Origin: Acidobacteriota bacterium
Lineage (GTDB): Bacteria; Acidobacteriota; UBA6911; RPQK01; CBDAPI01
Direction: 5' to 3'
NCBI GenBank assembly: GCA_965198355.1
Contig: CBDAPI010000015.1
Coordinates: forward strand, 922,608 to 986,607
DNA: 64,000 nt
Every line of letters starts with the position of its first letter. Position 1 is the stretch's first letter. The notes below the pieces were generated by a model. That model was not told where the DNA came from. It saw only the letters and a program-made list of their open reading frames with translations, and searched no databases. Shown piece after piece: positions 1-34,324 of the stretch. The translations under genes were made by a program, and so were the position numbers.

Positions 1-760
1 CGAGTAGGGATTGTCGTCACAGACATGAGGCCGAGAGTGAGACTTGGTGACTCCCAGATCGGCCAGTAGCAAGGCCAGTGCTTTGGAACTCATCGACGAG
101 CCACGATCGGCATGCAGGGTGAGACCACCCGCTACGATCTCCTGCTTGGAGTAGCTCTGGGCGATCAAGACCTTGGCCAGGCGGGAGCTTTCCTGGGTGG
201 CCACCATCCAGCCCACCACATAGCGGCTGAAGATGTCCAGGATCACGTAGAGGTAGTAATAGCTCCATTTGACGGGCCCCTTCAGCTTGGTGATGTCCCA
301 CGACCAGCATTGGTTCGGGCCGGTGGCCAGAAGTTCCGGCTTGGAGTATTGGGGATGGCGGCGCTGGCGACGGCGTTCTCTAACTTCCAGACGTTTGGCC
401 AGAATGCGGTACATGGTTCGAATCGAGCACAAGTATCGCCCTTCGTCCAGCAGCTCCGCCCATACGGCGGCAGGAGCTTTGTCGATAAACTGTCGGCTGT
501 GCAGGACCTCCACAACGGCTTCCCTTTCGGGCGGGCTCAAGGCGCGTGGGGATGCGGCCCGAGGCCGAGGATCCAGCGCCGGCCGTTCGCGCCGAAGTTT
601 CTCCCGATACAGACTCGATGGCGGCAGATCCAGAGCCTGACAGCCGGCACGGACTCCGTGGGATTGTGAGAATCGCAAAGCTTCGTCCATCAGCTCTCGT
701 CTCCGTTCTCTTCGCTGCTCGCCAGAGAGATTCCCAACAGTTGCGAGACTTTTTTTGGAG
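1..760 (-). CDS. IS3-family transposase OrfB (DDE integrase core), truncated by the window edge
   Basis: minus-strand translation ...RLEVRERRRQRRHPQYSKPELLATGPNQCWSWDITKLKGPVKWSYYYLYVILDIFSRYVVGWMVATQESSRLA...LHADRGSSM...; not in the ORF track because it has no internal Met start and is partial. Confidence 0.75.
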
Positions 761-1189
761 ATCCAGCATGGCTTCAAACTTCTCGAGCTTGCGTTTCAGC
801 TTCCGATTCTCAGCCTCCACTTGCCTCAGTTGATGATCCAGAGGATTGACCGGCTTTGCCTTTCGTCCCCGCTTGCGAGGGGTCAATGCCTGCAGCGTTC
901 CGTGCTCGCGTTGGCGTCGCCAGGTCTGCAGATTCGACCAGTAAAGTCCTTCTCGGCGCAGTAATGCTCCCACTTCGCCCGACTCTTCGCAGCCATCGGC
1001 CTGCTCCAGGACCCGGAGCTTATAGCGGGCTGAAAACCGGCGACGGGTTGCCTTGGCAGGAACTTCCGGGTCGGGTCGCGGCAACGCCTTCTCGGGCTCG
1101 GTCCGTCCCGCAGCGATTTTGGAGACCTCTCCCCTCCGCTCCGAGGTTTCCAAAATCCTCAGTTTCTTGTCGCTTCTGTTTTCTATCAT
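380..1189 (-). CDS. IS3-family transposase OrfA (HTH + leucine zipper); genuine OrfA covers ~690-1189, the rest is read-through because the A-tract is A7
   Basis: RRRFSARYKLRVLEQA...GLYWSNLQTWRRQ...ENRKLKRKLEKFEAMLDLQKK is a typical IS3 OrfA; slippery site ccAAAAAAAGtctc on the minus strand at ~748-760. Confidence 0.8.
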   Translation of the reverse strand: MIENRSDKKLRILETSERRGEVSKIAAGRTEPEKALPRPDPEVPAKATRRRFSARYKLRVLEQADGCEESGEVGALLRREGLYWSNLQTWRRQREHGTLQALTPRKRGRKAKPVNPLDHQLRQVEAENRKLKRKLEKFEAMLDLQKKSRNCWESLWRAAKRTETRADGRSFAILTIPRSPCRLSGSGSAAIESVSGETSARTAGAGSSASGRIPTRLEPARKGSRCGGPAQPTVYRQSSCRRMGGAAGRRAILVLDSNHVPHSGQTSGS

Positions 1190-2058
1190 TCTGTAATCCA
1201 GCTTCTCGCCCTCTACTCTAATTTAGCCGGGAAGAAGTGTCTCACCATTATTGGCACAGAGGGGGGACTGGAACTGGAAAGCCCCAGTCCTCGTCAGTCA
1301 CTTAGCAACTGCGCTCGTTCTGCCAGTGCTATCAGTTGCTCCAGCTTTTTATCAGTGAGCTTATCCCGACTAGGATCATCCACGACCGCCACCGCAGCCT
1401 GTACCTGCACCTATTCAAGGTCTTTCTTTTCGTTCCGATTCAATCCGATTTTCTGACGGGGTGCGGATAGGGTGCGTTTTCGTCGTGTCCTGGCTTCAAC
1501 CCTCAAACAGCCGCAAGCGGTGTCAAGCGCGTCCCTGCAACCTGTTGAACCCGGCAGGGGTAGGGGCAATCTTCCACCGGCTGTCCAAGCACATTCGGGG
1601 CCAGGATCACCGGGCAATCTGTCTTGTTGGAATGACGGTCGTAGCCGTGCTTTCATTCCGCCACCTGCACTTTGCGCATTTCGGAGACGGAGCAGGTTGC
1701 GGGTAATAATGATCTCTTCGCTGCCTCCCTGAAGCTGACTCGCACCGGCTGGCGTAATGAGTGTGATCTCGTTAGTGAGACCTATGGGGAAGTCAATTAC
1801 GGGATTTACGAGTCCTTTTTGCAAGAAATCAAACTCCAGCGAACCAAGAGCCTGAGCCTCGAAGAAGGCCACTGTAATGGCAAGATCCTCGGGGGTTAGG
1901 AAGATTGAGGGTTCCTATGCGTCCTTTTGTCCATTGTTGTTCACATCCGCAGAGGCTCCCTCGTCCGAGCTGGCCAATATCGGACCTGTCGAACAGGTAT
2001 CGTCTGTGAAAACGAAAGTCACAAGTCCCGGCAGGATATCCCCGTCGCCCAAATTGCC

Positions 2059-2319
2059 CTACACATCAAACCCAAGTGTTAGGTTTGTGGGGTCTCCAAT
2101 GATCGTTGCTTGGTCAAGTGTCAGGTCTAAAGCCTTCGCAAGGATGTCAATGTCGTCAAAGAATCCATCTGAAACGGGATCGACAAAAATCTTGAACTTG
2201 CCCGTCGAGGCCAGTGGCGCATTAGAGAATGTCGATTCTTGCCCGAGGAGTCCACAGCAGATTAGGCTGGGAACCAGCAGGGCGAGAGGTAAGGAGACCC
2301 ATGGTTGTTGCTGAAGCAT
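2059..2319 (-). CDS. hypothetical secreted protein (N-terminal signal peptide), possibly frameshifted into 1411-1872
   Basis: MLQQQPWVSLPLALLVPSLICCG signal-like N-terminus; no recognisable domain. Confidence 0.25.
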   Translation of the reverse strand: MLQQQPWVSLPLALLVPSLICCGLLGQESTFSNAPLASTGKFKIFVDPVSDGFFDDIDILAKALDLTLDQATIIGDPTNLTLGFDV

Positions 2320-2702
2320 AACGGCTCCTTTACTTTTTGGTTGGGGTAAGCAACGGTTGCCGTCCTTATACTTCGTCGTCTTGAAGAAGTCAATCTGATT
2401 GGGCCTGTGCTTGCCATTTCGCCACTCGGGTGGGGAGAAGTATCGGCGCCGAGGGTACTAAGGGCATGACGGGTTCCGGATTAGATGAGCGAATCTTTAC
2501 TAACCCGCCTCACCAATTCACCGGCACATGTCTCTCATGCCCTTTGATGGTGACATCGACAGCCCCGTGAAGTGTCTCCCATTTGTCTCCCACTCTACTT
2601 CCCAAGCTTTCCTAATCTTTCGGATATTCGGTTGGCGGAAAACCCGATTAAGTTGTTGATTTTCCTAATGTTTCCTAATGATTCGGCTTTCTCTGCTCAG
2701 GT

Positions 2703-2747
2703 CTGCAAAACCTTCATTCACCGGTTCGAGTCCGGTCGCCGCCTCCA
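2703..2747 (+). repeat. 3' half of a tRNA-Cys(GCA) gene (anticodon loop through CCA), copy 1; att-site-like fragment
   Basis: cTGCAAA(loop)-ACCTT-CATTC(variable)-ACCGG-TTCGAGT-CCGGT(T-arm)-CGCCGCC(acceptor)-T(U73 discriminator)-CCA; no 5' half upstream. Confidence 0.6.
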
Positions 2748-2955
2748 ACCACCCTTCTAAGTTATTGAAAATCCAGGATGTTACGGGGTCGAAGTTTGGC
2801 CGGTTTTTCGGAGGGCGGGTATTCGGGTGGGGTGCCTCCTTTCTGCCGCCTCTCCGCCCGCCCGTTACGGCTGCGCTTCTCCAGTGCTTCGCGGGCCACG
2901 GCGCACTAAGGGACCCGATAATTGATCTGACTAGTCTGATCAATTATCGGTTACA

Positions 2956-3231
2956 ATGGATTGGATGAGTAAAGTCTATTCCACTTACGAGGCAAAGACT
3001 AGATTCAGTGAGATCCTGCGCAGGGTTCGTGCTGGAGGAACGGTCAGGATCTCCTACCACGGCGAGGAAGTTGCGGAGATCCGGCCCCTCTCTCATCCGC
3101 AGAACCTGGAAGGATCACTGCGCCGCATGGAGGAGGAAGGGGTGGTCAGTAGAGCCAGCGGTTCGACACTTCCGAAGCCCCTGGCCAAACGACCTGGAGC
3201 CCTTGCTCGATTTCTGGAGTCGCGGGATTGA
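2956..3231 (+). CDS. Phd/YefM-family antitoxin
   Basis: YSTYEAKTRFSEILRRVRAGGTVRISYHGEEVAEIRPL matches the Phd/YefM fold; its stop overlaps the start of the downstream PIN gene (aTTGA). Confidence 0.8.
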   Translation: MDWMSKVYSTYEAKTRFSEILRRVRAGGTVRISYHGEEVAEIRPLSHPQNLEGSLRRMEEEGVVSRASGSTLPKPLAKRPGALARFLESRD

Positions 3232-3611
3232 GAGTTGCCTACGTTGACTCGTCGGTGGTGGTGGCGATTGCTTTCAACGAGCCCGAAGCGGCCCGACTTG
3301 TCACCAATCTGGGTTCCTTTGCACGGCTGCTTTCCTCCAACCTCCTGGAAGCGGAATTTGAGTCGGTTTGCTTGCGAGAGGGCGTGACTAATCCTACACC
3401 CGATTATCTCTCCGCTATTTCGTGGGTGTTTCCGAGCAGACCCTTGACGGCCGAGGTGAAAAGAGTTGCTGGGGCCGGCTATCTCCGGGGAGGCGATCTC
3501 TGGCATGTGGCCTGCGCCCTTTTTGTGTCGGCGGATCCGAGTCAGATCAGCTTCCTGACGCTGGATGAGCGGCAGAAGAAGGTTTCCAGGGCCCTGGGCT
3601 TCGCGAGCTGA
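3228..3611 (+). CDS. vapC: VapC-like PIN-domain toxin
   Basis: N-terminal AYVDSSVVVAIAFNEPEA matches the PIN acidic motif; ~127 aa; translationally coupled to the antitoxin. Confidence 0.75.
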   Translation: MRVAYVDSSVVVAIAFNEPEAARLVTNLGSFARLLSSNLLEAEFESVCLREGVTNPTPDYLSAISWVFPSRPLTAEVKRVAGAGYLRGGDLWHVACALFVSADPSQISFLTLDERQKKVSRALGFAS

Positions 3612-3756
3612 TCCCTCGTGAGCCGAGCCCAGGCGTTTGCCGCCCTTTTCGATTGGTAGGAGCCGGTAACTGCTGGTAAGATGTGACTTGCAGTAACCGG
3701 GCTTAACTCATTGATTTTGTTAAGCTTTGCTAGTGTTTACTAAGGCCGCCCTTCGC

Positions 3757-3798
3757 GTGCAAAACCTTCATTCACCGGTTCGAGTCCGGTCGCCGCCT
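3757..3798 (+). repeat. 3' half of tRNA-Cys(GCA), copy 2 (no encoded CCA)
   Basis: 42/42 nt identical to 2705-2746 (tgcaaaaccttcattcaccggttcgagtccggtcgccgcctc); direct orientation. Confidence 0.6.
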
Positions 3799-3831
3799 CT
3801 CACTCTCCTCCCTGTCTTCTCCTTTGATAGA

Positions 3832-4101
3832 ATGGCAAGTATGAGCAACTCCGTTGACGAGGTAATAATTCACCTGGACTTTGAGCCCCTGGAAACAGGG
3901 GGCTTTGTCGCGACGAGTCCTGACGTGCCTGGCTTGGTGGCTCAAGGCCGAACCATAGCCGAAGTCATCGAGATCGCTCGAGATGTCGCACAGAAGATCG
4001 TAGAGTCCTCTGTGGAGCACGGAGACCCTTTACCTGAAGCTTTCCAACGACCAAAGGTACCAGGACCGATCAGCGTGGACATACCAGTAACGCTTCCTTG
4101 A
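3832..4101 (+). CDS. hicB: HicB-like (UPF0150) antitoxin, apparently orphan
   Basis: FEPLETGGFVATSPDVPGLVAQGRTIAEVIEIARDVAQ matches HicB/UPF0150; no HicA ORF adjacent. Confidence 0.6.
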   Translation: MASMSNSVDEVIIHLDFEPLETGGFVATSPDVPGLVAQGRTIAEVIEIARDVAQKIVESSVEHGDPLPEAFQRPKVPGPISVDIPVTLP

Positions 4102-4155
4102 CCGCATGGGAAAGCTGGCTGGCTTCACCTACCGCGAGAGCACAGTAGCGATATT

Positions 4156-4527
4156 TTGCGCCTTTTTTATGCCGATGATCTGTTAGGCCCGTGGAAACAG
4201 CACCCACAGAGTCCGATCGTCATAGAAAATGGAGATATCGCCAGACCAGCTGGTAGAGTTGTGGAACTTGATGATGGCCGAATATTTAGATACGCTCAAT
4301 ATAGCCAACCCATTAACAGTACTCTGGTTCGGGCAGCTAACATTACCGAATTGACGACGACAAGTTATAAAGAAGAAGTGCTGGAAAATCCAATCGTAAA
4401 CGAAAGTGGTTCAGGTTGGAATAGTGATGGGATGCACTATTTTGATCCGCATGAGATCACTGACAATAAGTGGATCGCTAGCGTTAATGGCTGGACACCG
4501 GTGTGGGAATTTGGGTTTGAATACTAA
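4156..4527 (+). CDS. hypothetical protein or gene fragment in the AT-richer block
   Basis: ORF only; composition shift. Confidence 0.25.
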   Translation: MRLFYADDLLGPWKQHPQSPIVIENGDIARPAGRVVELDDGRIFRYAQYSQPINSTLVRAANITELTTTSYKEEVLENPIVNESGSGWNSDGMHYFDPHEITDNKWIASVNGWTPVWEFGFEY

Positions 4528-4539
4528 CTCTATATTACC

Positions 4540-5252
4540 TGCTCGTATGGAGGGTCTTCGGTGATTACAACTTATAAACGCATTATCAACATTAGCATAA
4601 GCGCTCTACTAACAGCTGTATTCCTCTACTTGGCTTTTAATAAAGTAGATCTTAACGTTATGTTGAATAGTTTCAGCCAGGTGAAGTTTCCGTACCCGCT
4701 ACTTAGCATTATTGCTTTTTCATGAGCCTATCAACCCGCTCATTGCTGTGGAAAAACACTTTTGGGGCTAACAATAAGATTAGGTTTGGCTCTCTATTCA
4801 GAGCTGTTGTTATTGGTCAAATGGGCAACAATATTCTCCCATTCAGGGGCGGGGAGTTACTCAGAGTTTACTCATTAAGTAGTAGCGAGCAGTTAAGTAA
4901 GTCGCAATGTCTATCTACAATCGTTGTCGAGCGCGTATTTGATCTAGTATCTTTCATAATATTGACAGTTTTTGTTTCTATCTTCATCGAAATCCCTATT
5001 TATTTGAGAAGCGGACTGATTATTGTATGTAGTGTTACCGTGTTTGCTCTAGCATTTATGATTTATATAGCCAATGCACCTACAATTGCCAATAGGATGT
5101 TTGGCTGGGCCAAAATAATCCTACCGGATAACTTTAAAGATACATTACAGGAAAGTTTTAATCAATTGGTGTTGGGCTTAACGGCCTTAAATAAATTGAA
5201 GACGACCTTGTTTATATTCATTCTATCCTTTTACTATTTCCGGCGATGGTAG
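4540..5252 (+). pseudogene. UPF0104 flippase-like (LPG-synthase-TM family) membrane protein, frameshifted and C-terminally truncated
   Basis: GANNKIRFGSLFRAVVIGQMGNNILPFRGGELLRVYSLS is the hallmark of UPF0104 (compare intact paralogs 34365-35417 and 40872-41849); the N-terminal part is in another frame (4555-4720). Confidence 0.5.
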
Positions 5253-5283
5253 TCAATATCGCAATTTTATCTATGTAGAGGAT

Positions 5284-5565
5284 ATGGCAGAGGCTCACGT
5301 ACTGGCCCTTGACGATGCAGCAGAAAATCAAATACTCAATTTGGAAGGAATACGCCGGATCTCTATTAAACATATCGCCGAGACCATTCAACAACTGATG
5401 CCTAACGATGTTACTATCGAGTATGTACCGGCTCGTCCGGGAGACTTCGAGGGTAAAGAGGCTTCAAATGACAAGATAAAAAGGCTGCTCAGTTGGGAGC
5501 CTAAGGTTGATTTTGAGGAAGGGATGCAAAAAACAATCGAGTGGTTTGAGGCTACACAGGTATGA
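5284..5565 (+). pseudogene. C-terminal fragment of an NAD-dependent sugar epimerase/dehydratase
   Basis: YVPARPGDFEGKEASNDKIKRLLSWEPKVDFEEGMQKTIEWF is a typical GalE/ArnA-like C-terminus; no Rossmann N-terminus. Confidence 0.55.
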
Positions 5566-5933
5566 TGAAGGCAGAACTGAAGCAGCTTTTTGAAAAAGCA
5601 ATTGTCTTTACGGGATATTTTACCGGAAAGTCCGCCGTTTGAGTATAAATAGTTCTATCCTCCAATCAATGATAAAGTATGTAACGCGTCTTGACATCTT
5701 AAATGTCTGGGGGTTTCCTGTTGCTCTGTTGGTTACCAGTTTAGCTATTCATAGCCCTTTCCTAATAACGGACTACTTCGGTGAGCAAGATGCGGCCCGG
5801 ATTGCCAATGACAGCATCATAGCAGCTTATGATGGTTACTTTCATGATCAGGGAGCTTCGGTCAGAGGTGGACCCGGAAAACTGGACCATTTGTTAAGGT
5901 GGCTCCGACCTGAATCAGAAAGGATGAGGAGTC

Positions 5934-6215
5934 ATGGCAAAACGAAGGAATTTCTCAGCTCAGTTTAAAGCGAAGGTGGCGCTGGAAGCGCTTCGAGGCG
6001 AACGCACCCTGAGCGAGTTGGCGGCTCGCTACGAGATCCATCCGAGTGTGATCACGAATTGGAAAAAGCGGGCCAGGGAAGGTCTGGGCGATGTGTTCGC
6101 GGGCAAGGTTGAGAAGCGTCAGAGAGGAAGCGAGGCGGAGACCAAAGAGCTTTATGCCAAGATCGGCGAACTGACGGTGGAAAAGGATTTTTTGTCCAAA
6201 GCGCTCGATCGCTGA
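5934..6215 (+). CDS. IS3-family transposase OrfA
   Basis: MAKRRNFSAQFKAKVALEALRGERTLSELAARYEIHPSVITNWKK. Confidence 0.85.
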   Translation: MAKRRNFSAQFKAKVALEALRGERTLSELAARYEIHPSVITNWKKRAREGLGDVFAGKVEKRQRGSEAETKELYAKIGELTVEKDFLSKALDR

Positions 6216-6286
6216 GTGTAAAGGCCAGAAGGGCCACGATCGAGCCAAAGCACCCGAGGCTGAGCATTCGTAGACAATGCAGGCTG

Positions 6287-7135
6287 ATGAGTCTGAACCG
6301 TTCGACTTTGTACTATGAGCCCAAAGGCGAGAGCGAAGAAAACCTGCAACTGATGAGACGATTGGACGAGCAGTTCTTAAAGACCCCCTACTACGGATCC
6401 CGGCAGATGGTCTATCACTTGAAACGGCGGGGCTCTCGGGTAGGCCGCAAGAGGGTTCGTCGTCTGATGGCCAAAATGGGCCTGGCGGTCATCTATCAAA
6501 AGCCGCGGACTTCACAGCCTCACCCGGAGAATCGAGTGTATCCGTATCTTCTTCGAGGATTGGCGGTCACCCGGCCCGATCAGGTGTGGTGCACGGATGT
6601 CACCTACATCCCGATGCGTCGGGGCTTTTTGTACCTGGTGGCGATCATGGACTGGTACAGCCGCTGGGTTTTGTCCTGGAGGCTGTCGAACACGCTGGAG
6701 CCGTCCTTTTGTTGCGAAGCACTCGAGGAAGCGCTCAACAGGTACGATCCCCCGGAGATCTTCAATACAGACCAGGGGAGTCAGTTCACCAGCACGGAGT
6801 TCACGGGACTACTCAAAGGGGCCGGGGTGCGTATCTCGATGGACGGGAGAGGCCGCTGGATGGACAACGTCTTCATCGAGCGTCTGTGGCGTTCACTCAA
6901 ATACGAATGCGTCTATCTGAACGCTTTCGAAACCGGGTCGGAAGCCCGTCAAGGGATCGGCCATTGGATCGACCTATACAACAGCGAGAGACCTCACTCG
7001 GCGCACGCTGGGGCGACGCCGGAGGAGGTGTACACTGGCTTGAAAAAACATTCTGAGAGGGACCTTGCCCTCAGGCTCGCCCCCTCTCAGAATTTCCCTT
7101 ACTGGCGGCAACAAGAACTGCGGAGTCCACCTTAG
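6287..7135 (+). CDS. IS3-family transposase OrfB (DDE integrase); true start upstream via frameshift
   Basis: QVWCTDVTYIPMRRGFLYLVAIMDWYSRWVLSW...FNTDQGSQFTS...ERLWRSLKYE. Confidence 0.85.
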   Translation: MSLNRSTLYYEPKGESEENLQLMRRLDEQFLKTPYYGSRQMVYHLKRRGSRVGRKRVRRLMAKMGLAVIYQKPRTSQPHPENRVYPYLLRGLAVTRPDQVWCTDVTYIPMRRGFLYLVAIMDWYSRWVLSWRLSNTLEPSFCCEALEEALNRYDPPEIFNTDQGSQFTSTEFTGLLKGAGVRISMDGRGRWMDNVFIERLWRSLKYECVYLNAFETGSEARQGIGHWIDLYNSERPHSAHAGATPEEVYTGLKKHSERDLALRLAPSQNFPYWRQQELRSPP

Positions 7136-7603
7136 AAATGCCGCCAAGTGGTCCAACCGATGGGGTCCACCTCTGTCTACTCCACCCCACTGTATCTACA
7201 TATTCCACAGATTAGCCTTCAGTCTGGTCTAATCGTCGCTTCAGATATTCCTTTTTGGATGGCGTTGGCCAGCTTGATCGCCAGCGCCACTGTCACGGTG
7301 GCCTTGTATATCTTTTTATACCGTTTGACTAAGAGTCTTCCGGTGGCATTAGGAGCAGCCTTAGCTCTGCAGCTGAATCCAACCTTCTGGTTCAATAGTG
7401 TATATGGCTTTGCTACAATTGTGGCCCTGGCTTTATTGTTAGTTTCCTTAGTTTTGTTTCAGGAGGTCTTAGAAAGTTCAACCTAAAATATTTATTCTAT
7501 GGTGGCGCCTTTCTCATGTATATATTGGCAGTCACCACCAAGATAGATACTATATTAGCCACTGCTATATTCTGCTTGCCGGTCTGGTCCTCTGAACGTT
7601 CGG

Positions 7604-9248
7604 TTAATGCTAACCCGGATTATGCAAGAGATCTGAATCCGAGTGAGATTTGGGTCCAGAAAAAAAGCCGTAGCTCTCTGATATAAAAGGGTTTACATAA
7701 AAACAACCCTAAACAGGAGCTACGGCTATGTTGAAAACAGTCTGCCAGAATACCCTGCCATTTCACAGCCACAGAGACATCACAGCTCGTTTTGATGGGG
7801 GGAGCCTCACTTCCGACGCAGGATGGTTGTTGTTTGGATCGCTGGATCGGCAACATCGATTGTGCGAGGGCTTCAGTTCGTGTATTGCGGAAAGCCGGGA
7901 CCGACGCTACATTCGTCATGACCTGTTGAAGTTGATCCGACAACGAGTGTTGCAGATCGTGGCCGGCTACGAAGACTGTAATGACGCCGATACGCTGCGC
8001 TCGGATCCGATGCTCAAGACAGTCTGTGATCAGTTGCCCGAGAGCGATCCCGATTTGGCCACCCAGCCGACTTTCTCCCGCTTGGAGAACTCCGTCACCA
8101 AGAAGGATCTGATGCGTCTGAGCCGGTGGCTGCTACGCCGTTATGTGCGCTCCCTGAAGAAGAGACGTCCCGCCAAGATCATCCTGGATCTGGACAGTAC
8201 CGACGACCACACTCACGGCCAACAGGAGTTCGCCTTCTACCACGGGTATTACCGAAACCACATTCTGCATCCTTTGCTGATCTTCGATGCCGCCACGGGA
8301 GACCTGGTCTGTGCCGTGTTGAGACCTGGCAACAAGGGGGCTGCCTCTCACATCGTGCCCATTCTGAAGCGCGTCGTGGAGGCCATCCGACAAGCAGTGG
8401 GGACGGATGTCGAGATTGAGATTCGGGCCGACAGCGGCTTTGCCACGCCTCGGCTCTACGAGTTCTGTGAAGGTGAAGAGAATCAACTCCAATATGTCAT
8501 TGGGTTAAGTCGCAACCCTCGCCTGCAGCGAGTGGTCGAGCCCCTGCTGGATTCGACTCGGGAAAGGTTCGTTGAGCGGGAGGAAAAACAGCGTCAGTTT
8601 GACGAGTTTCTTTATCGAGCCAACAGCTGGGATCGATCCCGTCGCGTCATTGTCAAAGTGGAGGTCGATCAGCGCGGGATCAATCGTCGCTTTGTGGTCA
8701 CCAACCGGGACGATCTCTGCTCCCAATCACTTTATGACCACTACACCGACCGAGGGCAGACCGAGAACTTCATCAAGGCCTTTAAGAATCATCTGAGCAT
8801 GGACCGACTCAGCTGTCATCGATTCCTGGCCAACCAGTTTCGACTCCTCCTGCATGCACTGGCTTACCAGATGTTCGTGCGCCTGCGCGACTATCTGCAC
8901 GGAACCCCCTGGCACAAGCTCGAAATCGAAACCTTACGTCGTCGTGTCCTCAAGATCGGGGCCCGGATCCGACAAACCACTCGACGCATCTGGGTCCATC
9001 TTTCCTCAGCCTTTCCCGAACAACCCCTCTTTCACCTCGTCTTGAGTCGCCTGAACTCCAGCTAGCTTCTCCCAGTTCCCCGAAAAACCGCTTCCGACAC
9101 TCATCCAGGCCCAGATCTGTCTGAAATTCACTCCCCCAACCACTCAAACGCCTCGCCAACCGATATTCTTCGCAAATCCGCCTGTCACAACTGCCCGCTT
9201 CCGAGTTGGGCCACTTCTCGAGCCCTTTTTCAACAGCGGATTACGGTT
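7604..9248 (+). mobile_element. IS1380-like (IS4-superfamily DDE) insertion sequence, copy 1
   Basis: ends TA(A/G)CCCGGATTATGCAAG ... CTTGCATAATCCGGGCTA; ~1.65 kb; >99% identical to the inverted copy at 20286-21952. Confidence 0.8.
7728..9065 (+). CDS. IS1380-family DDE transposase (445 aa)
   Basis: N-terminal ...ARFDGGSLTSDAGWLLFGSLDRQHRL... signature and a D..D..E core; differs by 2 aa from the copy at 20493-21830. Confidence 0.8.
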   Translation: MLKTVCQNTLPFHSHRDITARFDGGSLTSDAGWLLFGSLDRQHRLCEGFSSCIAESRDRRYIRHDLLKLIRQRVLQIVAGYEDCNDADTLRSDPMLKTVCDQLPESDPDLATQPTFSRLENSVTKKDLMRLSRWLLRRYVRSLKKRRPAKIILDLDSTDDHTHGQQEFAFYHGYYRNHILHPLLIFDAATGDLVCAVLRPGNKGAASHIVPILKRVVEAIRQAVGTDVEIEIRADSGFATPRLYEFCEGEENQLQYVIGLSRNPRLQRVVEPLLDSTRERFVEREEKQRQFDEFLYRANSWDRSRRVIVKVEVDQRGINRRFVVTNRDDLCSQSLYDHYTDRGQTENFIKAFKNHLSMDRLSCHRFLANQFRLLLHALAYQMFVRLRDYLHGTPWHKLEIETLRRRVLKIGARIRQTTRRIWVHLSSAFPEQPLFHLVLSRLNSS

Positions 9249-10149
9249 CTTGCATAATCCGGGCTAAGGTGATTTGGGTTGCCGCGTTGGTCGCATGTAC
9301 CGGTACCGTTTTCGTAACTTTTAATCAATATGCTCACTTTTTATCGCCTGATAAGACATCAATTGGCCATTGGAGTGATTATGGATCTGCGTTTCTTGTT
9401 GGTATTGAAAACCTTACCTCAAGGAGTAATCTCAGGACGATAGCTAAATCGGTAGGTCTTTTGAGTATTCCGGCAGCGTTGATCGCCATCATAATTACAG
9501 GATGGCAGCGTAAATGGCAGCTAACAATGTTTTGGTTGATTATGGCCGCCCTTCCAACTGTATTATTTTGGAGCATGATATCGGGAAATAGTGCCCGGCA
9601 TAATCTGATCCCAGGCGTATTTGTGTACGTTTTATTAGCATTACCATTTGCAACCCGCTTACGGCGAGATTGGGTCTACATTCTTGCCATCATCTTTGTT
9701 GTTAATTATTTGTACTATCCGCCCTCAGACAATACTGTTTCTCCTTCTGGCGGATTATTAGGAAATGCGCGTTTACTCAGAGACAGGGCAGAAGAGTACC
9801 ACACTCTGGGAGAAACGATTGCCCACTCAGCTCATCAAAAGATGGCAGTTATAGGAATCGGTTATAGACAACCCTATTTCATATTTGAAACGCTTCGAAG
9901 CCCTCAACTTTCCTATAATAGCCACAAAACAAATTTAAAAAAGGTGCAAACCTTGGAAATGAAAAATGACAACCAGAACCAAACCTTCCTTTGGATATAT
10001 GACGAACCAGAAATATCGGAAATTGTAGAATTAGTCAACAATGGCTATTCCGTAATTGTTATTGATAATGATGAGATGGATGAGATGTTAAAAGAGTTGG
10101 GTAACCTGCCGGAACTTCAAGGCAAGTTGGTGTCAATTGATGTGGAATA

Positions 10150-15232: not shown

Positions 15233-18010
15233 GTGCCATCTGTTAGAGTCTCCAAGGATGTGTATTTGGTCGCACTTTTCCCGTCGCACTTTTCCCTTAG
15301 AATAATTCAGTTCACCAACTTGCGTATACCTCTGGTCTTTTCCTTTATCCTGTCCTTCGGCTCGGCAATGGCTCAGTCGGTTGAGCTGGAGTGGGATCCG
15401 AACTCGGAGCCGGATCTGGCTGGATACAACGTTTACCGTTCGCTTTCATCCGGCTCCGGCTACTCCATCGTCAATCCCAGCCTGGTCCCTTCGCCATCGT
15501 ACACGGATACTACGGTCACCCCGGGTAATACCTATTATTATGTTGTCACCGCTCAAAACACTGGTGGCTTGGAGAGCGGTTTTTCCAATGAAATCAATAC
15601 CTTTATAGAGGGGCTTCCCCCAACTGCGGCGCTGACGCTGGTGAAGTCGTCGGATGCAACGTCTGCGCCGGCAGTGGGGGAGACCATCACCTATTCCTAT
15701 GTGGTCACGAACAGCGGCGAGGTGACGCTAACCGGTATTACGGTCACGGACGTTCATGGCGGCATCGGAGGGTCTTTCTCGGGAGTGAGTTGCCCAGCCA
15801 CGAGCATAGCCGTGGGTGACTCCATGACGTGTACAGCAACCTATGTGCTGGTGCAGGCAGTAAATGCAGGTTCGATTTCCAATACAGCCACAGCTGACAG
15901 TAACGAGACCGGCCCGGTGCAGGCAGACGTAAATGCAGGTTCGATTTCCAATACAGCCACAGCTGACAGTAACGAGACCGGCCCGGTGAGCAGTTCTTTG
16001 ACGGTGTCACTTTCCCCGAATGCGGCGCTGACACTGGTGAAGTCGTCCGATGCAACGCCTGACCCGGCAGTGGGAGAGACTATCACCTATTCCTATGTGG
16101 CCACGAACGGCGGCGAGGTGACGCTAACCGGTGTCACTGTCACGGACGTTCATGGCGGCATCGGAGGGTCTTTCTCGGGAGTGAGTTGCCCAGCGACGAG
16201 CCTGGCCGTGGGTGACTCGATGACATGCACAGCAACCTATGTGCTGGTGCAGGCAGACGCAGATGCAGGTTCCGTGTCCAATACAGCCACAGCTGACAGC
16301 AACGAGACCGGCCCGGTGAGCAGTTCTTTGACGGTGTCACTTTCCCCGAATGCGGCGCTGGCACTGGTGAAGTCGTCGGATGCAACGCCTGACCCGGCAG
16401 TGGGAGAGACTATCACCTATTCCTATGTGGCCACGAACGGCGGCGAGGTGACGCTAACCGGTGTCACTGTCACGGACGTTCATGGCGGCATCGGAGGGTC
16501 TTTCTCGGGAGTGAGTTGCCCAGCCACGAGCCTAGCCGTGGGTGACTCCATGACGTGTACAGCAACCTATGTGCTGGTGCAGGCAGACGTAAATGCAGGT
16601 TCGATTTCCAATACAGCCACAGCCGACAGTAACGAGACCGGCCCGGTGAACAGTTCTTTGACGGTACTGATAACCACTACTTTTCTGGTCCTGCCGACGA
16701 CCTTCGACCTGGGAAGTCCGGAATTTGAAGATACTTTCGTGGGTGCCGCAATCGCCAACCTTTCGGACCAGCCCGCCCACGTCGTCGTCTCTGCTCTGAC
16801 GAGCTTCGGGACCGAGGTTGCGAGCCAGCAACTCGGTGACGAGCTATTGGCCATGGGACAAGACGCATTCCTGACCACAGACCACCCCGAACTGGTGGAA
16901 GGCTCGAGCTCCTGGCTCCTGAGGGGAACCTCAGCAAAGGTGCGGGGATTTTTCATGATCGGCGACCGGGATATGAACAAGCTCGACGGGATCGGCGGCG
17001 AACTTGATGAATCGAAGTCACTGTTCTTCCCGCTGGCCAGAGAAAGCGCGGCTGGGAGCACCCTCCTTCATCTCTTCAATGTCGAGAAACAAGCGGGAAC
17101 CGTTACCCTCACTCTCTTCGAGCCTCTGGGGATCCCAGTCGCAGAGGCGGAGATCACGGTCGCACCCTCGGGTGGCGTACAGGGAACGATGGAAGAGATC
17201 TTCGGGGCGGGCCTCGAGTTCTCCGACGGGTACCTGGAGGTTCAGAGCAGTGTTCGGCTCAAAGGATTCGAGTTCTATGCGCAGGAGGGCGCATTTGCAG
17301 CCGTTCCCGGCCAAGCACCGCAGCCGACCTGGAAGCTGTGGACTCCTCATTTCTTTGTGGAGGGCCAGTCTGGTGACACCGAAATCCGCTTGTTGAGTAC
17401 GGATTCCGAAAGAGCCCGCGTCAGCATCCAGGGGTTTGACAACGAGTCCACTTTGATTGGAACCTACGAGCTCGAGATCGAGCCGGGACAACTCTTCGTC
17501 GGAAGTGTCCGGGAGATGCTCAACCTGGACCCCGGAATGGGCGTGATCACAGGCCACCTCGAGATCAGCCTGGAGGCCGGAACTTTCTTTACCTATTCCC
17601 CACAAGTATTGGGACTGGTCACTTTCAGCGCTAACGGAGGCAAATGGCTCTCGACCCTGCCCCTGCTGACCGAAGGACATAAAGAGACCCTGTTTCTCCA
17701 GGTGGCCCAATCTGATCAAATCGGGATGTTCACCGGCCTCGCCGTTCTCAATCCGGGTGAGTCGGCGGCGCAGGTAGAAGTCGAGGTTTTCGATCAGAAC
17801 GGGATCCGAACCGGCCGCGCCGGATTCAGCCTGGCTCCGGGTCAACGTGTGTTGAACTTGCTGGACGGGGACACTTATTTCGGAGACGGCTTCGAACAGA
17901 TCAAGGGACTCTTTCGAGTCAGGAGCACGGTTCCGGTCCTCAGCTTTTCACTCTTTGGAGACTACGGACTCCGGTTTCTTTCAGCGGTGGAAGGGCAGTA
18001 CCCGGAGTAG
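15233..18010 (+). CDS. 925-aa secreted surface protein: N-terminal FN3 domain, 3 tandem DUF11/TIGR01451-type 'conserved repeat domain' copies, and C-terminal unnamed modules shared with 21958-26544 and 29278-31755
   Basis: FN3: VELEWDPNSEPDLAGYNVYRS...NTYYYVVTAQN; DUF11: GETITYSYVVTNSGEVTLTGITVTDV...SCPATS..GDSMTCTATYV x3; C-terminal ...FTGLAVLNPGESAAQVEVEVFDQNG... Confidence 0.8.
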   Translation: MPSVRVSKDVYLVALFPSHFSLRIIQFTNLRIPLVFSFILSFGSAMAQSVELEWDPNSEPDLAGYNVYRSLSSGSGYSIVNPSLVPSPSYTDTTVTPGNTYYYVVTAQNTGGLESGFSNEINTFIEGLPPTAALTLVKSSDATSAPAVGETITYSYVVTNSGEVTLTGITVTDVHGGIGGSFSGVSCPATSIAVGDSMTCTATYVLVQAVNAGSISNTATADSNETGPVQADVNAGSISNTATADSNETGPVSSSLTVSLSPNAALTLVKSSDATPDPAVGETITYSYVATNGGEVTLTGVTVTDVHGGIGGSFSGVSCPATSLAVGDSMTCTATYVLVQADADAGSVSNTATADSNETGPVSSSLTVSLSPNAALALVKSSDATPDPAVGETITYSYVATNGGEVTLTGVTVTDVHGGIGGSFSGVSCPATSLAVGDSMTCTATYVLVQADVNAGSISNTATADSNETGPVNSSLTVLITTTFLVLPTTFDLGSPEFEDTFVGAAIANLSDQPAHVVVSALTSFGTEVASQQLGDELLAMGQDAFLTTDHPELVEGSSSWLLRGTSAKVRGFFMIGDRDMNKLDGIGGELDESKSLFFPLARESAAGSTLLHLFNVEKQAGTVTLTLFEPLGIPVAEAEITVAPSGGVQGTMEEIFGAGLEFSDGYLEVQSSVRLKGFEFYAQEGAFAAVPGQAPQPTWKLWTPHFFVEGQSGDTEIRLLSTDSERARVSIQGFDNESTLIGTYELEIEPGQLFVGSVREMLNLDPGMGVITGHLEISLEAGTFFTYSPQVLGLVTFSANGGKWLSTLPLLTEGHKETLFLQVAQSDQIGMFTGLAVLNPGESAAQVEVEVFDQNGIRTGRAGFSLAPGQRVLNLLDGDTYFGDGFEQIKGLFRVRSTVPVLSFSLFGDYGLRFLSAVEGQYPE
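15620..16675 (+). repeat. three ~330-bp tandem coding repeats with near-identical nucleotide sequence (DUF11 units)
   Basis: 16017-16345 vs 16347-16675 almost base-identical; first unit 15620-15990 more diverged. Confidence 0.75.
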
Positions 18011-20287: not shown

Positions 20288-21952
20288 GTGCTAGCCCGGA
20301 TTATGCAAAAACCGTAGTCCGGTGTTGAAAAACGAGTCGAGAAGTGGCCCAACTCGGAAGCGGGCAGTTGTGACAGGCGGATTTGCGAAGAATATCGGTT
20401 GGCGAGGCGTTTGAGTGGTTGGGGGAGTGAATTTCAGACAGATCTGGGCCTGGATGAGTGTCGGAAGCGGTTTTTCGGGGAACTGGGAGAAGCTAGCTGG
20501 AGTTCAGGCGACTCAAGACGAGGTGAAAGAGGGGTTGTTCGGGAAAGGCTGAGGAAAGATGGACCCAGATGCGTCGAGTGGTTTGTCGGATCCGGGCCCC
20601 GATCTTGAGGACACGACGACGTAAGGTTTCGATTTCGAGCTTGTGCCAGGGGGTTCCGTGCAGATAGTCGCGCAGGCGCACGAACATCTGGTAAGCCAGT
20701 GCATGCAGGAGGAGTCGAAACTGGTTGGCCAGGAATCGATGACAGCTGAGTCGGTCCATGCTCAGATGATTCTTAAAGGCCTTGATGAAGTTCTCGGTCT
20801 GCCCTCGGTCGGTGTAGTGGTCATAAAGTGATTGGGAGCAGAGATCGTCCCGGTTGGTGACCACAAAGCGACGATTGATCCCGCGCTGATCGACCTCCAC
20901 TTTGACAATGACGCGACGGGATCGATCCCAGCTCTTGGCTCGATAAAGAAACTCGTCAAACTGACGCTGTTTTTCCTCCCGCTCAACGAACCTTTCCCGA
21001 GTCGAATCCAGCAGGGGCTCGACCACTCGCTGCAGGCGAGGGTTGCGACTTAACCCAATGACATATTGGAGTTGATTCTCTTCACCTTCACAGAACTCGT
21101 AGAGCCGAGGCGTGGCAAAGCCGCTGTCGGCCCGAATCTCAATCTCGACATCCGTCCCCACTGCTTGTCGGATGGCCTCCACGACGCGCTTCAGAATGGG
21201 CACGATGTGAGAGGCAGCCCCCTTGTTGCCAGGTCTCAACACGGCACAGACCAGGTCTCCCGTGGCGGCATCGAAGATCAGCAAAGGATGCAGAATGTGG
21301 TTTCGGTAATACCCGTGGTAGAAGGCGAACTCCTGTTGGCCGTGAGTGTGGTCGTCGGTACTGTCCAGATCCAGGATGATCTTGGCGGGACGTCTCTTCT
21401 TCAGGGAGCGCACATAACGGCGTAGCAGCCACCGGCTCAGACGCATCAGATCCTTCTTGGTGACGGAGTTCTCCAAGCGGGAGAAAGTCGGCTGGGTGGC
21501 CAAATCGGGATCGCTCTCGGGCAACTGATCACAGACTGTCTTGAGCATCGGATCCGAGCGCAGCGTATCGGCGTCATTACAGTCTTCGTAGCCGGCCACG
21601 ATCTGCAACACTCGTTGTCGGATCAACTTCAACAGGTCATGACGAATGTAGCGTCGGTCCCGGCTTTCCGCAATACACGAACTGAAGCCCTCGCACAATC
21701 GATGTTGCCGATCCAGCGATCCAAACAACAACCATCCTGCGTCGGAAGTGAGGCTCCCCCCATCAAAACGAGCTGTGATGTCTCTGTGGCTGTGAAATGG
21801 CAGGGTATTCTGGCAGACTGTTTTCAACATAGCCGTAGCTCCTGTTTAGGGTTGTTTTTATGTAAACCCTTTTATATCAGAGAGCTACGGCTTTTTTTCT
21901 GGACCCAAATCTCACTCGGATTCAGATCTCTTGCATAATCCGGGCTAGAATC
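20286..21952 (-). mobile_element. IS1380-like insertion sequence, copy 2 (inverted relative to copy 1)
   Basis: ends gcTAGCCCGGATTATGCAA (20283-) and CTTGCATAATCCGGGCTAg (-21952); internal sequence is the reverse complement of 7604-9248. Confidence 0.8.
20493..21830 (-). CDS. IS1380-family DDE transposase (445 aa), copy 2
   Basis: identical to 7728-9065 except for 2 substitutions (N/K, T/R). Confidence 0.8.
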   Translation of the reverse strand: MLKTVCQNTLPFHSHRDITARFDGGSLTSDAGWLLFGSLDRQHRLCEGFSSCIAESRDRRYIRHDLLKLIRQRVLQIVAGYEDCNDADTLRSDPMLKTVCDQLPESDPDLATQPTFSRLENSVTKKDLMRLSRWLLRRYVRSLKKRRPAKIILDLDSTDDHTHGQQEFAFYHGYYRNHILHPLLIFDAATGDLVCAVLRPGNKGAASHIVPILKRVVEAIRQAVGTDVEIEIRADSGFATPRLYEFCEGEENQLQYVIGLSRNPRLQRVVEPLLDSTRERFVEREEKQRQFDEFLYRAKSWDRSRRVIVKVEVDQRGINRRFVVTNRDDLCSQSLYDHYTDRGQTENFIKAFKNHLSMDRLSCHRFLANQFRLLLHALAYQMFVRLRDYLHGTPWHKLEIETLRRRVLKIGARIRQTTRRIWVHLSSAFPEQPLFHLVLSRLNSS

Positions 21953-33182: not shown

Positions 33183-33429
33183 ATTTCAGCAATCCAAATC
33201 CGCAATCCGAAATCCGAGATTCCCTTGTTGTTTCTCTACAGAACCAGAAACCGATAGTACTGGAGCTTAAGAAACTGCAGCGTGACCTCCTGGATACCGT
33301 GCCAGCTTTCGGCCCAGTTCGCCGGAGTCCTAGTTCCTAACACGGGGACGCAGCGAACCTCAATGCTCAACTCACCCAAAGATTCTTGATAGATTCGAGT
33401 CGAGCGTCGGCTGCGGCAGGATCCGGGCG
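33183..33429 (+). repeat. 245-bp direct repeat, copy 1 (heptad array at its 5' end), flanking the IS3 remnant
   Basis: ~99% identical to 34078-34324 (1 indel). Confidence 0.8.
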
Positions 33430-34074
33430 TGGCGGCAGATCCAGAGCCTGACAGCCGGCACGGACTCCGTGGGATTGTGAGAATCGCAAAGCTTCGTCCA
33501 TCAGCTCTCGTCTCCGTTCTCTTCGCTGCTCGCCAGAGAGATTCCCAACAGTTGCGAGACTTTTTTTTGGAGATCCAGCATGGCTTCAAACTTCTCGAGC
33601 TTGCGTTTCAGCTTCCGATTCTCAGCCTCCACTTGCCTCAGTTGATGATCCAGAGGATTGACCGGCTTTGCCTTTCGTCCCCGCTTGCGAGGGGTCAATG
33701 CCTGCAGCGTTCCGTGCTCGCGTTGGCGTCGCCAGGTCTGCAGATTCGACCAGTAAAGTCCTTCTCGGCGCAGTAATGCTCCCACTTCGCCCGACTCTTC
33801 GCAGCCATCGGCCTGCTCCAGGACCCGGAGCTTATAGCGGGCTGAAAACCGGCGACGGGTTGCCTTGGCAGGAACTTCCGGGTCGGGTCGCGGCAACGCC
33901 TTCTCGGGCTCGGTCCGTCCCGCAGCGATTTTGGAGACCTCTCCCCTCCGCTCCGAGGTTTCCAAAATCCTCAGTTTCTTGTCGCTTCTGTTTTCTATCA
34001 TTCTGTAATCCAGCTTCTCGCCCTCTACTCTAATTTAGCCGGGAAGAAGTGTCTCACCATTATTGGCACAGAGG
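33430..34074 (-). mobile_element. IS3-family remnant (same IS as 1-1262): orfB deleted, orfA and right end retained
   Basis: identity to copy A from ~612 to 1262; A8 instead of A7 at the slippery site. Confidence 0.75.
33501..34001 (-). CDS. IS3-family transposase OrfA (166 aa, natural stop)
   Basis: identical to the N-terminus of the 380-1189 product up to ...AMLDLQKK. Confidence 0.8.
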   Translation of the reverse strand: MIENRSDKKLRILETSERRGEVSKIAAGRTEPEKALPRPDPEVPAKATRRRFSARYKLRVLEQADGCEESGEVGALLRREGLYWSNLQTWRRQREHGTLQALTPRKRGRKAKPVNPLDHQLRQVEAENRKLKRKLEKFEAMLDLQKKVSQLLGISLASSEENGDES

Positions 34075-34077
34075 GTT

Positions 34078-34324
34078 TCAGCAATCCAAATCCGCAATCC
34101 GAAATCCGAGATTCCCTTGTTGTTTCTCTACAGAACCAGAAACTCGATAGTACTGGAGCTTAAGAAACTGCAGCGTGACCTCCTGGATACCGTGCCAGCT
34201 TTCGGCCCAGTTCGCCGGAGTCCTAGTTCCTAACACGGGGACGCAGCGAACCTCAATGCTCAACTCACCCAAAGATTCTTGATAGATTCGAGTCGAGCGT
34301 CGGCTGCGGCAGGCGGGCGTCACC
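34078..34324 (+). repeat. 245-bp direct repeat, copy 2 (begins with heptad array 34081-34116)
   Basis: see 33183-33429. Confidence 0.8.

What the first reader, a model, noticed from the sequence alone, without database searches (positions are those of the whole stretch)
2703..3798. Two direct copies of the 3' half of a tRNA-Cys(GCA) bracket a 1-kb Phd/YefM-VapC cassette (mini integrative islet)
Positions 2705-2746 and 3757-3798 are 42/42 identical. They fold as anticodon loop (cTGCAAA) - variable loop - T-arm (ACCGG/TTCGAGT/CCGGT) - acceptor 3' strand CGCCGCC - U73 discriminator; U73 is the identity base of tRNA-Cys. Copy 1 even encodes CCA. Neither copy has a D-arm or 5' acceptor strand. That pattern is what tyrosine-integrase elements leave behind (attL/attR duplications of a tRNA 3' end), but here the intact tRNA itself is missing, implying successive integrations or deletions. 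The only cargo between the half-sites is the toxin-antitoxin pair. Directly downstream is an orphan HicB. Directly upstream (2596-2690) lie three TTTCCTAAT(n2)TTCGG direct repeats that could be an operator.
Basis: partly seen in the sequence, partly recalled or inferred. Interest (0 to 1): 0.55.

Follow-up and report, generated by a model that had tools for sequence, protein, structure and literature searches.

The report
Decayed tRNA-Cys island keeping only toxin-antitoxin
Two identical copies of the back half of a cysteine tRNA gene mark the ends of a worn-down mobile element in an Acidobacteriota genome. The element has lost its integrase and kept only a toxin-antitoxin pair, which is an ordinary kind of genomic scar, though a clearly readable one.

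Summary
A 42/42 exact direct repeat lies at 2704-2745 and 3758-3799, with no other copy in the window. It equals tRNA positions 33-74 (the 3' part, from the anticodon loop through the first C of the CCA end) of intact tRNA-Cys(GCA) genes in 14 Acidobacteriota-type contigs.

Next to copy 1 lies a pseudogene remnant of a tyrosine integrase (2717-2896, minus strand, in-frame stop). Full-length relatives of this integrase abut intact tRNA-Cys genes in five other loci. One contig (L006) has an intact tRNA-Cys joined directly to the hicB flank that follows copy 2 here.

A second contig (L022) carries the same islet scaffold, 93% and 90% identical at the two ends, next to an intact tRNA-Cys. Its cargo is HigB/HigA instead of Phd/VapC. 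The roughly 715-bp phd-vapC unit, with its own palindromic operator, recurs at 86-87% identity in two unrelated contexts.

The flank left of copy 1 resembles the islet's right arm in register and holds a 29-nt piece of a second integrase tail. This points to a tandem array of decayed elements. The intact tRNA is not in the window.

This is a new member of a known kind: an integrase-less, cis-mobilizable-type islet. Interest is low to moderate.

The parts
2571..2599 (-). 29-nt fragment of a second integrase C-terminal tail (encodes SGRQMGDT). It is the remnant of an older or neighbouring element A.
   Evidence: Matches the same spot of the integrase genes of L003, L024, L025 and L026 (26/29 to 21/22 identical, blastn E 7e-4, 0/200 shuffles), in the orientation expected for an element integrated in the same sense. 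P0123 has SRGRQMGDT at this position.
2634..2698 (+). Arm-like flank left of copy 1 (element A right arm), with TTTCCTAAT repeats at 2661 and 2671. A third copy lies at 2608.
   Evidence: In-register similarity to the islet's own right arm: 21/28 at the same distance from the core, 0/5000 shuffles, 0/3434 window 70-mers. Its function as arm-type binding sites is inferred, not shown.
2699..2748 (+). Copy 1: tRNA-Cys(GCA) positions 28-76 including CCA. The 42-nt repeat core is 2704-2745. It is the attL of islet B and the attR of element A.
   Evidence: 100% identical to intact tRNA-Cys genes over 47-50 nt. No 5' half is present.
2717..2896 (-). Tyrosine integrase pseudogene: the last ~60 codons only, with an in-frame TAA at 2762-2764. 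Its final 10 codons and stop are the reverse complement of the tRNA 3' end.
   Evidence: tblastn with the L003 integrase gives 48% over 60 aa, E 2e-11, and E 0.002 without the tRNA-encoded residues. It is 88% identical to P0121, a 98-aa remnant that keeps the catalytic motif HSSIKTTEKYYAH. The closest full-length relative is P0139. The L003 ORF hits PF00589 at 6.6e-24.
2908..3625 (+). Self-contained phd/yefM-vapC module of about 715 bp.
   Evidence: The same unit, with the same boundaries, occurs at 86-87% DNA identity in two unrelated contexts, L010-L014 and L015-L018, with no tRNA fragments there. It fills almost exactly the interval that is non-homologous to L022 (2904-3638).
2915..2950 (.). 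Palindrome with 18-nt arms and no spacer, directly upstream of phd. Likely the autoregulatory operator.
   Evidence: 17/18 complementary. It is conserved in all three contexts of the module. The operator role is inferred from general type II TA biology.
2965..3231 (+). Phd/YefM-family antitoxin, 88 aa. An upstream ATG at 2956 is not conserved in relatives.
   Evidence: Pfam PF02604, 3.7e-08. Relatives are called as 88-aa genes, and the first ATG is absent in L010, L015 and L016.
3228..3611 (+). VapC PIN-domain toxin, 127 aa. Its TTG start overlaps the phd stop.
   Evidence: Pfam PF01850, 4.8e-07. There are 304 homologues. The acidic residues D7, E41/E43, D90 and D113 that are invariant in the family are retained.
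3639..3757 (+). Right arm of islet B, with phased TTTGTTAAG / TTTGCTAGT / TTTACTAAG repeats next to the core.
   Evidence: 90% identical to the arm preceding the second tRNA fragment in L022. The repeats were read directly from the sequence.
3758..3799 (+). Copy 2: tRNA-Cys positions 33-74, the displaced fragment (attR of islet B).
3800..4139 (+). Flank that abuts an intact tRNA-Cys in L006: hicB (3835-4101) plus the first ~11 codons of hicA (4106-4139).
   Evidence: L006 1955-2336 is 95.8% identical to window 3758-4139. L006 continues into a full hicA.

Best explanation
The interval 2699-3799 is the decayed remnant of an integrative element that a tyrosine integrase inserted into the tRNA-Cys(GCA) gene of an Acidobacteriota bacterium. 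The crossover lay at or near the anticodon loop.

Such elements carry a copy of the tRNA's 3' part. Integration therefore regenerates the gene at the integrase end and displaces the original 3' fragment to the far end (copy 2).

The element then lost nearly everything. The integrase is reduced to its last ~60 codons and carries a stop codon. What remains is the two att repeats, a ~120-nt right arm, and a self-contained phd-vapC module with its own palindromic operator.

Copy 1 lacks the 5' half of the tRNA. The likely reason is that a second, related element later integrated into the regenerated tRNA (tandem accretion). That would have moved the intact gene further left and left its own right arm against copy 1. 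This second element is itself eroded to a 29-nt integrase fragment plus the arm. The intact tRNA with its conserved upstream neighbours is no longer adjacent, probably after IS-associated rearrangement.

The islet cannot move by itself. It now behaves as a chromosomal type II TA locus: Phd neutralises the VapC RNase and represses the operon at the palindrome. The addictive nature of TA pairs is the likely reason this is the last cargo left. A homologous islet in L022 likewise retains only a TA pair, of a different family.

Shown: the repeat's identity with the tRNA, the integrase remnant, the join seen in L006, the homologous islet with different cargo, and the modularity of the TA unit. Inferred: the order of events, arm-site function, operator function and TA-driven retention.
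For: - Exact repeat identical to intact tRNA-Cys genes.
- Integrase remnant beside copy 1.
- Full-length family members overlap intact tRNA-Cys in L003, L023, L024, L025 and L026.
- L006 joins an intact tRNA-Cys directly to the hicB flank at 95.8% identity.
- L022 reads: intact tRNA-Cys, 98-aa integrase remnant, HigB/HTH antitoxin, arm, second 42-mer. Its two scaffold ends are 93% and 90% identical to the window and its interior is unrelated.
- The TA module recurs as a discrete unit elsewhere.
- VapC keeps its active-site residues.
- Copy 1's identity with the tRNA stops only 5 nt left of copy 2's limit, and its left flank matches the islet's arm in register.
- A second integrase-tail fragment lies at 2571-2599.
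- Published framework: a tDNA plus a displaced fragment mark island ends, anticodon-centred attP sites are common, and tandem arrays are known (PMC4383910). Decay to integrase-less elements that keep attL and attR, followed by accretion, is also described (PMC5704250).
Against: - The intact tRNA-Cys that the tandem model requires is not in the window. The source contig could not be retrieved.
- No complete relative with both att sites was captured, so the attP arm structure of the family is unknown.
- The arm similarity (21/28) and the 29-nt integrase fragment are short.
- The region left of 2571 has no recognisable homology.
- The arm-plus-core pattern was not found in JGI metagenomes.
- TA-driven retention rests on two islets only.
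Confidence: 0.82

Rival explanations
1. There was a single element and no tandem. Copy 1 was the regenerated, functional tRNA-Cys, and a later deletion or IS-mediated rearrangement removed its 5' half. The left flank would then be unrelated DNA.
For: - The neighbourhood is full of IS copies and gene fragments.
- The conserved upstream neighbours of tRNA-Cys seen in L022-L025 are absent from the whole window.
- No tRNA copy lies further left within the window.
Against: - The breakpoint falls only 5 nt from the left limit of the att identity block seen at copy 2, and 1 nt from that seen in L022 (46 nt). A random deletion end is unlikely to land there.
- The flank left of copy 1 resembles the islet's arm in register, 0/5000 shuffles.
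- That flank also holds a fragment of a different integrase tail in the right orientation.
Confidence: 0.13
2. The islet is not a dead scar. It is a non-autonomous mini-element, still excised and integrated in trans by integrases of resident full-length relatives, with TA modules exchanged as cargo.
For: - Both att repeats are perfect (42/42), and the right arm is conserved at 90% between two genomes whose chromosomal genes differ by about 12%.
- The same scaffold is followed by different sequences on its right in the window and in L022.
- L006 has the joined tRNA-hicB state.
- Cis-mobilisation of integrase-less elements is documented in other phyla (PMC5704250).
Against: - No excised or circular form was seen, and there is no second identical copy.
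- No integrase of the family lies in the window beyond the remnants.
- The left arm is mostly decayed integrase coding sequence with a stop codon.
- The observations fit vertical descent plus local rearrangement equally well.
Confidence: 0.04
3. The tRNA-Cys half copies are functional partners of the toxin, for example decoy substrates or regulators of a VapC that cleaves tRNA-Cys in the anticodon loop.
For: - The repeats begin at U33, just before the anticodon.
- From my own recollection, not checked in the held library: some VapC toxins cleave specific tRNAs in the anticodon loop, and one mycobacterial VapC is reported to target tRNA-Cys.
Against: - The same phd-vapC module occurs in two other contexts without any tRNA fragment.
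- The homologous islet in L022 has the same fragments around an unrelated HigBA pair.
- An anticodon-loop boundary is the commonest attP type in tDNA islands (PMC4383910).
- No promoter-like site was found in 2500-4200.
Confidence: 0.01

Closest known systems
CIME (cis-mobilizable element) and tandem accretion of integrative elements, first described for ICESt1/ICESt3-related islands of Streptococcus thermophilus (Pavlovic et al. 2004, as reviewed in PMC5704250)
   Same: [quoted passage not shown] It sits in tandem with another, related element at the same target gene. The array was formed by integration of a newcomer into the att site that holds the complete target.
   Different: The phylum is Acidobacteriota and the target is tRNA-Cys. 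The parents appear to be small replicative elements (Prim-Pol/PriCT or DNA polymerase A modules) rather than conjugative elements. The neighbouring element is also decayed. Mobilisation has not been shown.
tDNA genomic islands as defined by Islander (tRNA gene plus displaced 3' fragment, tyrosine integrase, anticodon-centred attP; PMC4383910)
   Same: There are direct repeats of a tRNA 3' fragment in the same orientation. The identity block runs from the anticodon loop to the 3' end. The integrase gene lies at the tRNA-proximal end and extends across the att site.
   Different: Islander's own filters would reject it. It is 1.05 kb, below the 2-kb minimum. It has no intact integrase. The full-length tRNA partner is missing from the locus.
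TA modules that stabilise mobile or dispensable DNA (stabilisation model for TA loci in super-integrons and islands; PMC2654758)
   Same: A type II TA pair is the only surviving cargo of a degraded mobile element, in two independent islets with different TA families. The TA unit behaves as a portable cassette.
   Different: No attC-like or other recombination site flanks the module. The stabilising effect is inferred from what survives and has not been measured.
VapBC-type type II TA systems with a Phd/YefM-family antitoxin
   Same: There is a PIN-domain toxin with a conserved acidic quartet. The antitoxin lies upstream and its stop overlaps the toxin start. A palindrome sits in front of the operon.
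   Different: The RNA target, the toxicity and the operator binding are all untested.

Membership tests
tDNA-integrated genomic island (Islander definition) | A displaced fragment of a tRNA gene, in direct orientation, reaching the gene's 3' end | tested here: met
   Both copies are identical to positions 33-74 (copy 1: 28-76) of intact tRNA-Cys genes and share one orientation.
tDNA-integrated genomic island (Islander definition) | A full-length cognate tRNA gene at the other end of the island | tested here: not met
   There is no tRNA in the window and no 5' half. The feature is met in the homologous islet of L022.
tDNA-integrated genomic island (Islander definition) | An intact tyrosine integrase gene inside the island | tested here: not met
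   Only the last ~60 codons remain, with an in-frame stop and without the catalytic region.
CIME (integrase-less element retaining attL and attR) | Derived from an integrative element | tested here: met
   An integrase pseudogene sits beside copy 1. Full-length relatives occupy the same position in five loci.
CIME (integrase-less element retaining attL and attR) | Both att sites retained | tested here: met
   The 42/42 identical cores are present. The right arm is conserved at 90% against L022, and the left side at 93%.
CIME (integrase-less element retaining attL and attR) | Can be excised or mobilised by the integrase of a related element | not testable with these tools
   This needs junction PCR, long reads or recombination assays.
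Tandem accretion array | A second related element abutting the shared att site | tested here: inconclusive
   The left flank shows an arm-like in-register match and a 29-nt integrase-tail fragment. There is no further recognisable element DNA and no leftmost tRNA.
Type II VapBC-like TA system | Adjacent small antitoxin and PIN toxin genes in one operon | tested here: met
   PF02604 and PF01850 both hit. The stop and start codons overlap at 3228-3231.
Type II VapBC-like TA system | PIN catalytic acidic residues intact | tested here: met
   D7, E41/E43, D90 and D113 fall in invariant columns of 15 homologues.
Type II VapBC-like TA system | Toxicity neutralised by the antitoxin, and autoregulation at the operator | not testable with these tools
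   This needs expression and binding assays.

The most novel reading that the evidence does not exclude
The 1-kb unit is one of a family of integrase-less mini-elements at tRNA-Cys in Acidobacteriota. They are still moved in trans by resident integrases of the same family. Each has a fixed att scaffold of about 330 nt into which different TA modules (Phd-VapC here, HigBA in L022) are swapped as cassettes. In effect it would be a TA shuttle that parasitises larger integrative elements.
Probability: 0.05. Interest if true: 0.5.

Novelty: new member of a known kind. Interest (0 to 1): 0.27.

Why it matters
The locus is a compact, fully readable example of how integrative elements die. Integrase and replication genes disappear, att repeats and a short arm persist, and the last cargo standing is a toxin-antitoxin pair.

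Two homologous islets keep different TA families within the same scaffold. The phd-vapC unit also recurs with identical boundaries in three contexts. Both facts fit the idea that TA modules resist deletion and move as discrete units, although how they move is not explained here.

There is a practical point too. Island finders that demand an integrase, a full tRNA partner and at least 2 kb would miss such islets. tRNA fragments of this kind can also be mis-annotated as tRNA pseudogenes. None of this changes current understanding.

Tried and rejected
- **Source contig.** Exact-product look-ups for phd (two starts), vapC, hicB and the 100%-identical database entry P0001 all failed. I therefore could not read upstream of the window to find the intact tRNA. 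The cluster look-up gave no accession or name.
- **Viral contigs.** A scan with the 42-mer found nothing.
- **JGI metagenomes.** A scan for the arm-plus-core pattern found nothing. The 42-mer scan gave only three more intact tRNA-Cys genes.
- **Complete relative with both att sites.** None was captured within 10 kb in L003, L023, L024, L025 or L026. P0122 was not on record.
- **Rfam.** The hit was only sub-threshold. I did not treat this as refutation, because the comparison with real tRNA genes is direct.
- **Region 1265-2570.** There were no Pfam or PHROG hits and no similarity to any fetched locus.
- **Promoter scan of 2500-4200.** It found no sigma-70-like site.
- **TTTCCTAAT repeats as the TA operator.** Rejected. 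They lie outside the islet, and the module carries its own conserved palindrome.
- **Split or permuted tRNA.** Rejected. No 5' half exists anywhere in the window.
- **Functional tRNA-half decoy for VapC.** Rejected on context grounds.

Full report
**Observation**

The window holds an exact 42-nt direct repeat at 2704-2745 and 3758-3799, with a start-to-start spacing of 1054 nt. No further copy exists at up to 3 mismatches, and shuffles give none. ARAGORN finds no tRNA gene anywhere in the 64 kb. The Rfam tRNA model gives only a sub-threshold match on copy 1 (15.9 bits, gathering score 29) and none on copy 2.

**Identity of the repeat**

A scan of one genome per species found the 42-mer in nine contigs. 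All are Acidobacteriota MAGs or MAGs with the same tRNA. In every case it lies inside an intact tRNA-Cys(GCA) gene. Five further intact genes with the same 42-mer came from JGI metagenomes and from loci fetched later.

The repeat covers tRNA positions 33-74: U33, the GCA anticodon, the variable loop, the T arm, the acceptor 3' strand, U73 and the first C of CCA. Copy 1 matches the tRNA over 50 nt (2699-2748), which adds AGGTC on the left and completes CCA. Copy 2 matches over 42 nt and is followed by TCAC. The 5' half of the tRNA is absent from the whole window, and no degenerate tRNA remains in 1265-2698.

**What lies between the copies**

Reading left to right, there are three parts.

1. *Integrase remnant.* On the minus strand, 2717-2896 encodes the last ~60 residues of a tyrosine integrase, interrupted by a TAA at 2762-2764. 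Its final residues (GGGDRTRTGE, then the stop) are the reverse complement of the tRNA's T arm and acceptor strand. The match to the integrase next to tRNA-Cys in L003 is 48% over 60 aa (E 2e-11), or E 0.002 when the tRNA-encoded residues are removed. The L003 ORF hits PF00589 at 6.6e-24. A database search with the remnant returned one protein, P0121. It is 88% identical and 98 aa long, and still carries the catalytic motif HSSIKTTEKYYAH.
2. *The TA module.* 2908-3625 is a phd/yefM-vapC module. An 18-nt-arm palindrome lies at 2915-2950. The Phd/YefM antitoxin has PF02604; its conserved start is at 2965, giving 88 aa. The PIN toxin has PF01850 and spans 3228-3611, with its start overlapping the phd stop. 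The toxin keeps D7, E41/E43, D90 and D113, which are invariant in 15 homologues.
3. *The right arm.* 3639-3757 is a non-coding arm ending at copy 2. It carries three phased repeats: TTTGTTAAG, TTTGCTAGT and TTTACTAAG.

**Comparative evidence for integration**

L006 has an intact tRNA-Cys followed directly by the sequence that follows copy 2 in the window. The match is 95.8% over 382 nt and covers hicB and the start of hicA. Relative to L006, one repeat plus the islet is an insertion.

Full-length integrases of the same family, about 390 aa, end inside intact tRNA-Cys genes in L003, L023, L024, L025 and L026. Their elements carry the following:
- a DNA polymerase A in L023;
- an HTH_17 excisionase-like gene with Prim-Pol and PriCT_1 in L024 and L025;
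- an AAA_25/DnaB-like protein in L026.

tRNA-Cys is therefore a recurrent target of one integrase family carried by small replicative integrative elements in these bacteria.

**A homologous islet with different cargo**

L022 is a 4.3-Mb ENA contig. In tRNA orientation it reads as follows:
- an intact tRNA-Cys;
- a 98-aa integrase remnant;
- a HigB-like toxin with an HTH antitoxin;
- the arm;
- a second 42-mer, with 46 nt of tRNA identity;
- a 29-nt copy of the element's integrase-side end;
- pantothenate biosynthesis genes.

Window 2699-2903 is 93% identical to L022, and window 3639-3799 is 90% identical. The interiors, 735 nt here and 972 nt there, are unrelated. A chromosomal gene pair further downstream is collinear at 87.6%. 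The att scaffold is thus shared, and the TA cargo differs.

**The TA module is a discrete unit**

The closest VapC homologues, at 83-84% identity, lie in two other contexts. One (L010-L014) is between a peptidase gene and unknown genes. The other (L015-L018) is at the edge of IS-rich mobile DNA with Prim-Pol, capsid or resolvase genes. In both, DNA homology to the window runs from 2908/2910 to 3619/3625 at 86-87% and stops there. No tRNA or tRNA fragment is present. The palindrome is part of the conserved unit. How the unit moves is not evident, because no flanking repeats were seen.

**Why copy 1 lacks the 5' half**

Three observations favour a tandem array over a random deletion.

1. The tRNA identity of copy 1 ends 5 nt left of copy 2's limit and 1 nt from that of L022's fragment. 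An att identity block would behave this way.
2. The 70 nt left of copy 1 resemble the islet's own arm at the same distance from the core. The match is 21/28, with 0 of 5000 shuffles and 0 of 3434 window 70-mers reaching it. This stretch includes TTGATTTT and the two adjacent TTTCCTAAT repeats.
3. 2571-2599 matches a conserved spot in the C-terminal tail of the L003-, L024-, L025- and L026-type integrases, in the right orientation. It encodes SGRQMGDT, against SRGRQMGDT in P0123.

Together these suggest that a second, related element integrated into the regenerated tRNA and then decayed even further. This is the decay-and-accretion pathway described for integrase-less elements that retain attL and attR (PMC5704250). 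tDNA tandem arrays are also recorded in Islander (PMC4383910).

The leftmost intact tRNA is not in the window. Neither are its conserved upstream neighbours, CarboxypepD_reg and the FAD oxidase seen in L022-L025. The surroundings are dense with IS copies and gene fragments, so a rearrangement probably separated them. This step is inferred.

The TTTCCTAAT repeats lie outside the islet, and the TA module carries its own operator-like palindrome. They are therefore better read as arm-type or accessory sites of the neighbouring element, which remains untested.

HicB is an orphan because hicA is cut after about 11 codons at 4139. At that point homology to L006 ends and GC content falls to about 43%.

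**Mechanism and status**

The islet arose by tyrosine-integrase recombination at an anticodon-centred att site. It lost its integrase and is now immobile on its own. It most likely acts only as a chromosomal Phd-VapC locus. Two homologous islets retain only a TA pair, which fits the stabilisation view of TA modules (PMC2654758), but two cases prove nothing.

Two further readings were considered. Trans-mobilisation by resident relatives is not excluded. A functional role for the tRNA halves toward VapC is contradicted by the module's other contexts and by the HigBA islet.

**Verdict**

This is a new member of a known kind: a decayed, CIME-like tDNA islet in a tandem array. Interest is low to moderate.

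Noticed in passing
window 4099-4140; L006 2296-2520: The 'orphan' hicB is followed by only the first ~11 codons of hicA (MGKLAGFTYRE). Homology to L006, which has a full hicB-hicA pair, stops at 4139. So the toxin gene was truncated and the antitoxin survives alone.
   Followed up: yes
window 4140-5600: This is a low-GC (~43%) stretch made of gene fragments: the C-terminal third of a GINT1_N-like protein, a partial LPG_synthase_TM and the C-terminal end of a GDP-mannose-dehydratase-like epimerase. It looks like scrambled foreign cell-envelope genes.
   Followed up: partly
window 2908-3625; L010 9683-10392; L015 9685-10398: The phd-vapC unit, including its palindrome, has the same boundaries in three unrelated genomic contexts at 86-87% identity, with no flanking repeats. 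The way such TA units relocate is not apparent.
   Followed up: partly
L022 8945-10340: This is a homologous tRNA-Cys islet with an intact tRNA, a longer integrase remnant and a HigB/HTH-antitoxin pair instead of Phd-VapC. Its second tRNA fragment is followed by a 29-nt copy of the element's integrase-side end, a trace of yet another element.
   Followed up: yes
window 1-1264, 33430-34075, 5864-7175, 7607-9266, 20292-21951: There are several IS copies. An rve-type IS runs off the window start, and its 619-1263 segment is repeated at 33430-34075 (99.8%). An IS3-type element lies at 5864-7175. A DDE_Tnp_1_4 element occurs twice in inverted orientation (99.5%).
   Followed up: partly
window 33184-33430 and 34076-34320: A 247-nt direct repeat (98.4%) flanks the 646-nt IS fragment at 33430-34075. 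This is much longer than a target-site duplication and is unexplained.
   Followed up: no
window 15614-16665 and 60660-60987: There are internal tandem repeats. Units of about 330 nt (90-97% identical) lie inside the 925-aa ORF at 15233-18010. A 161-nt unit is repeated once (start-to-start 167 nt) at 60660-60987 (99.4%).
   Followed up: no
window 1411-2319, minus strand: Two ORFs could be one frameshifted gene for a secreted protein (signal-peptide-like N-terminus MLQQQPWVSLPLALLVPSLICCG). They have no Pfam or PHROG match and no similarity to any fetched locus.
   Followed up: partly
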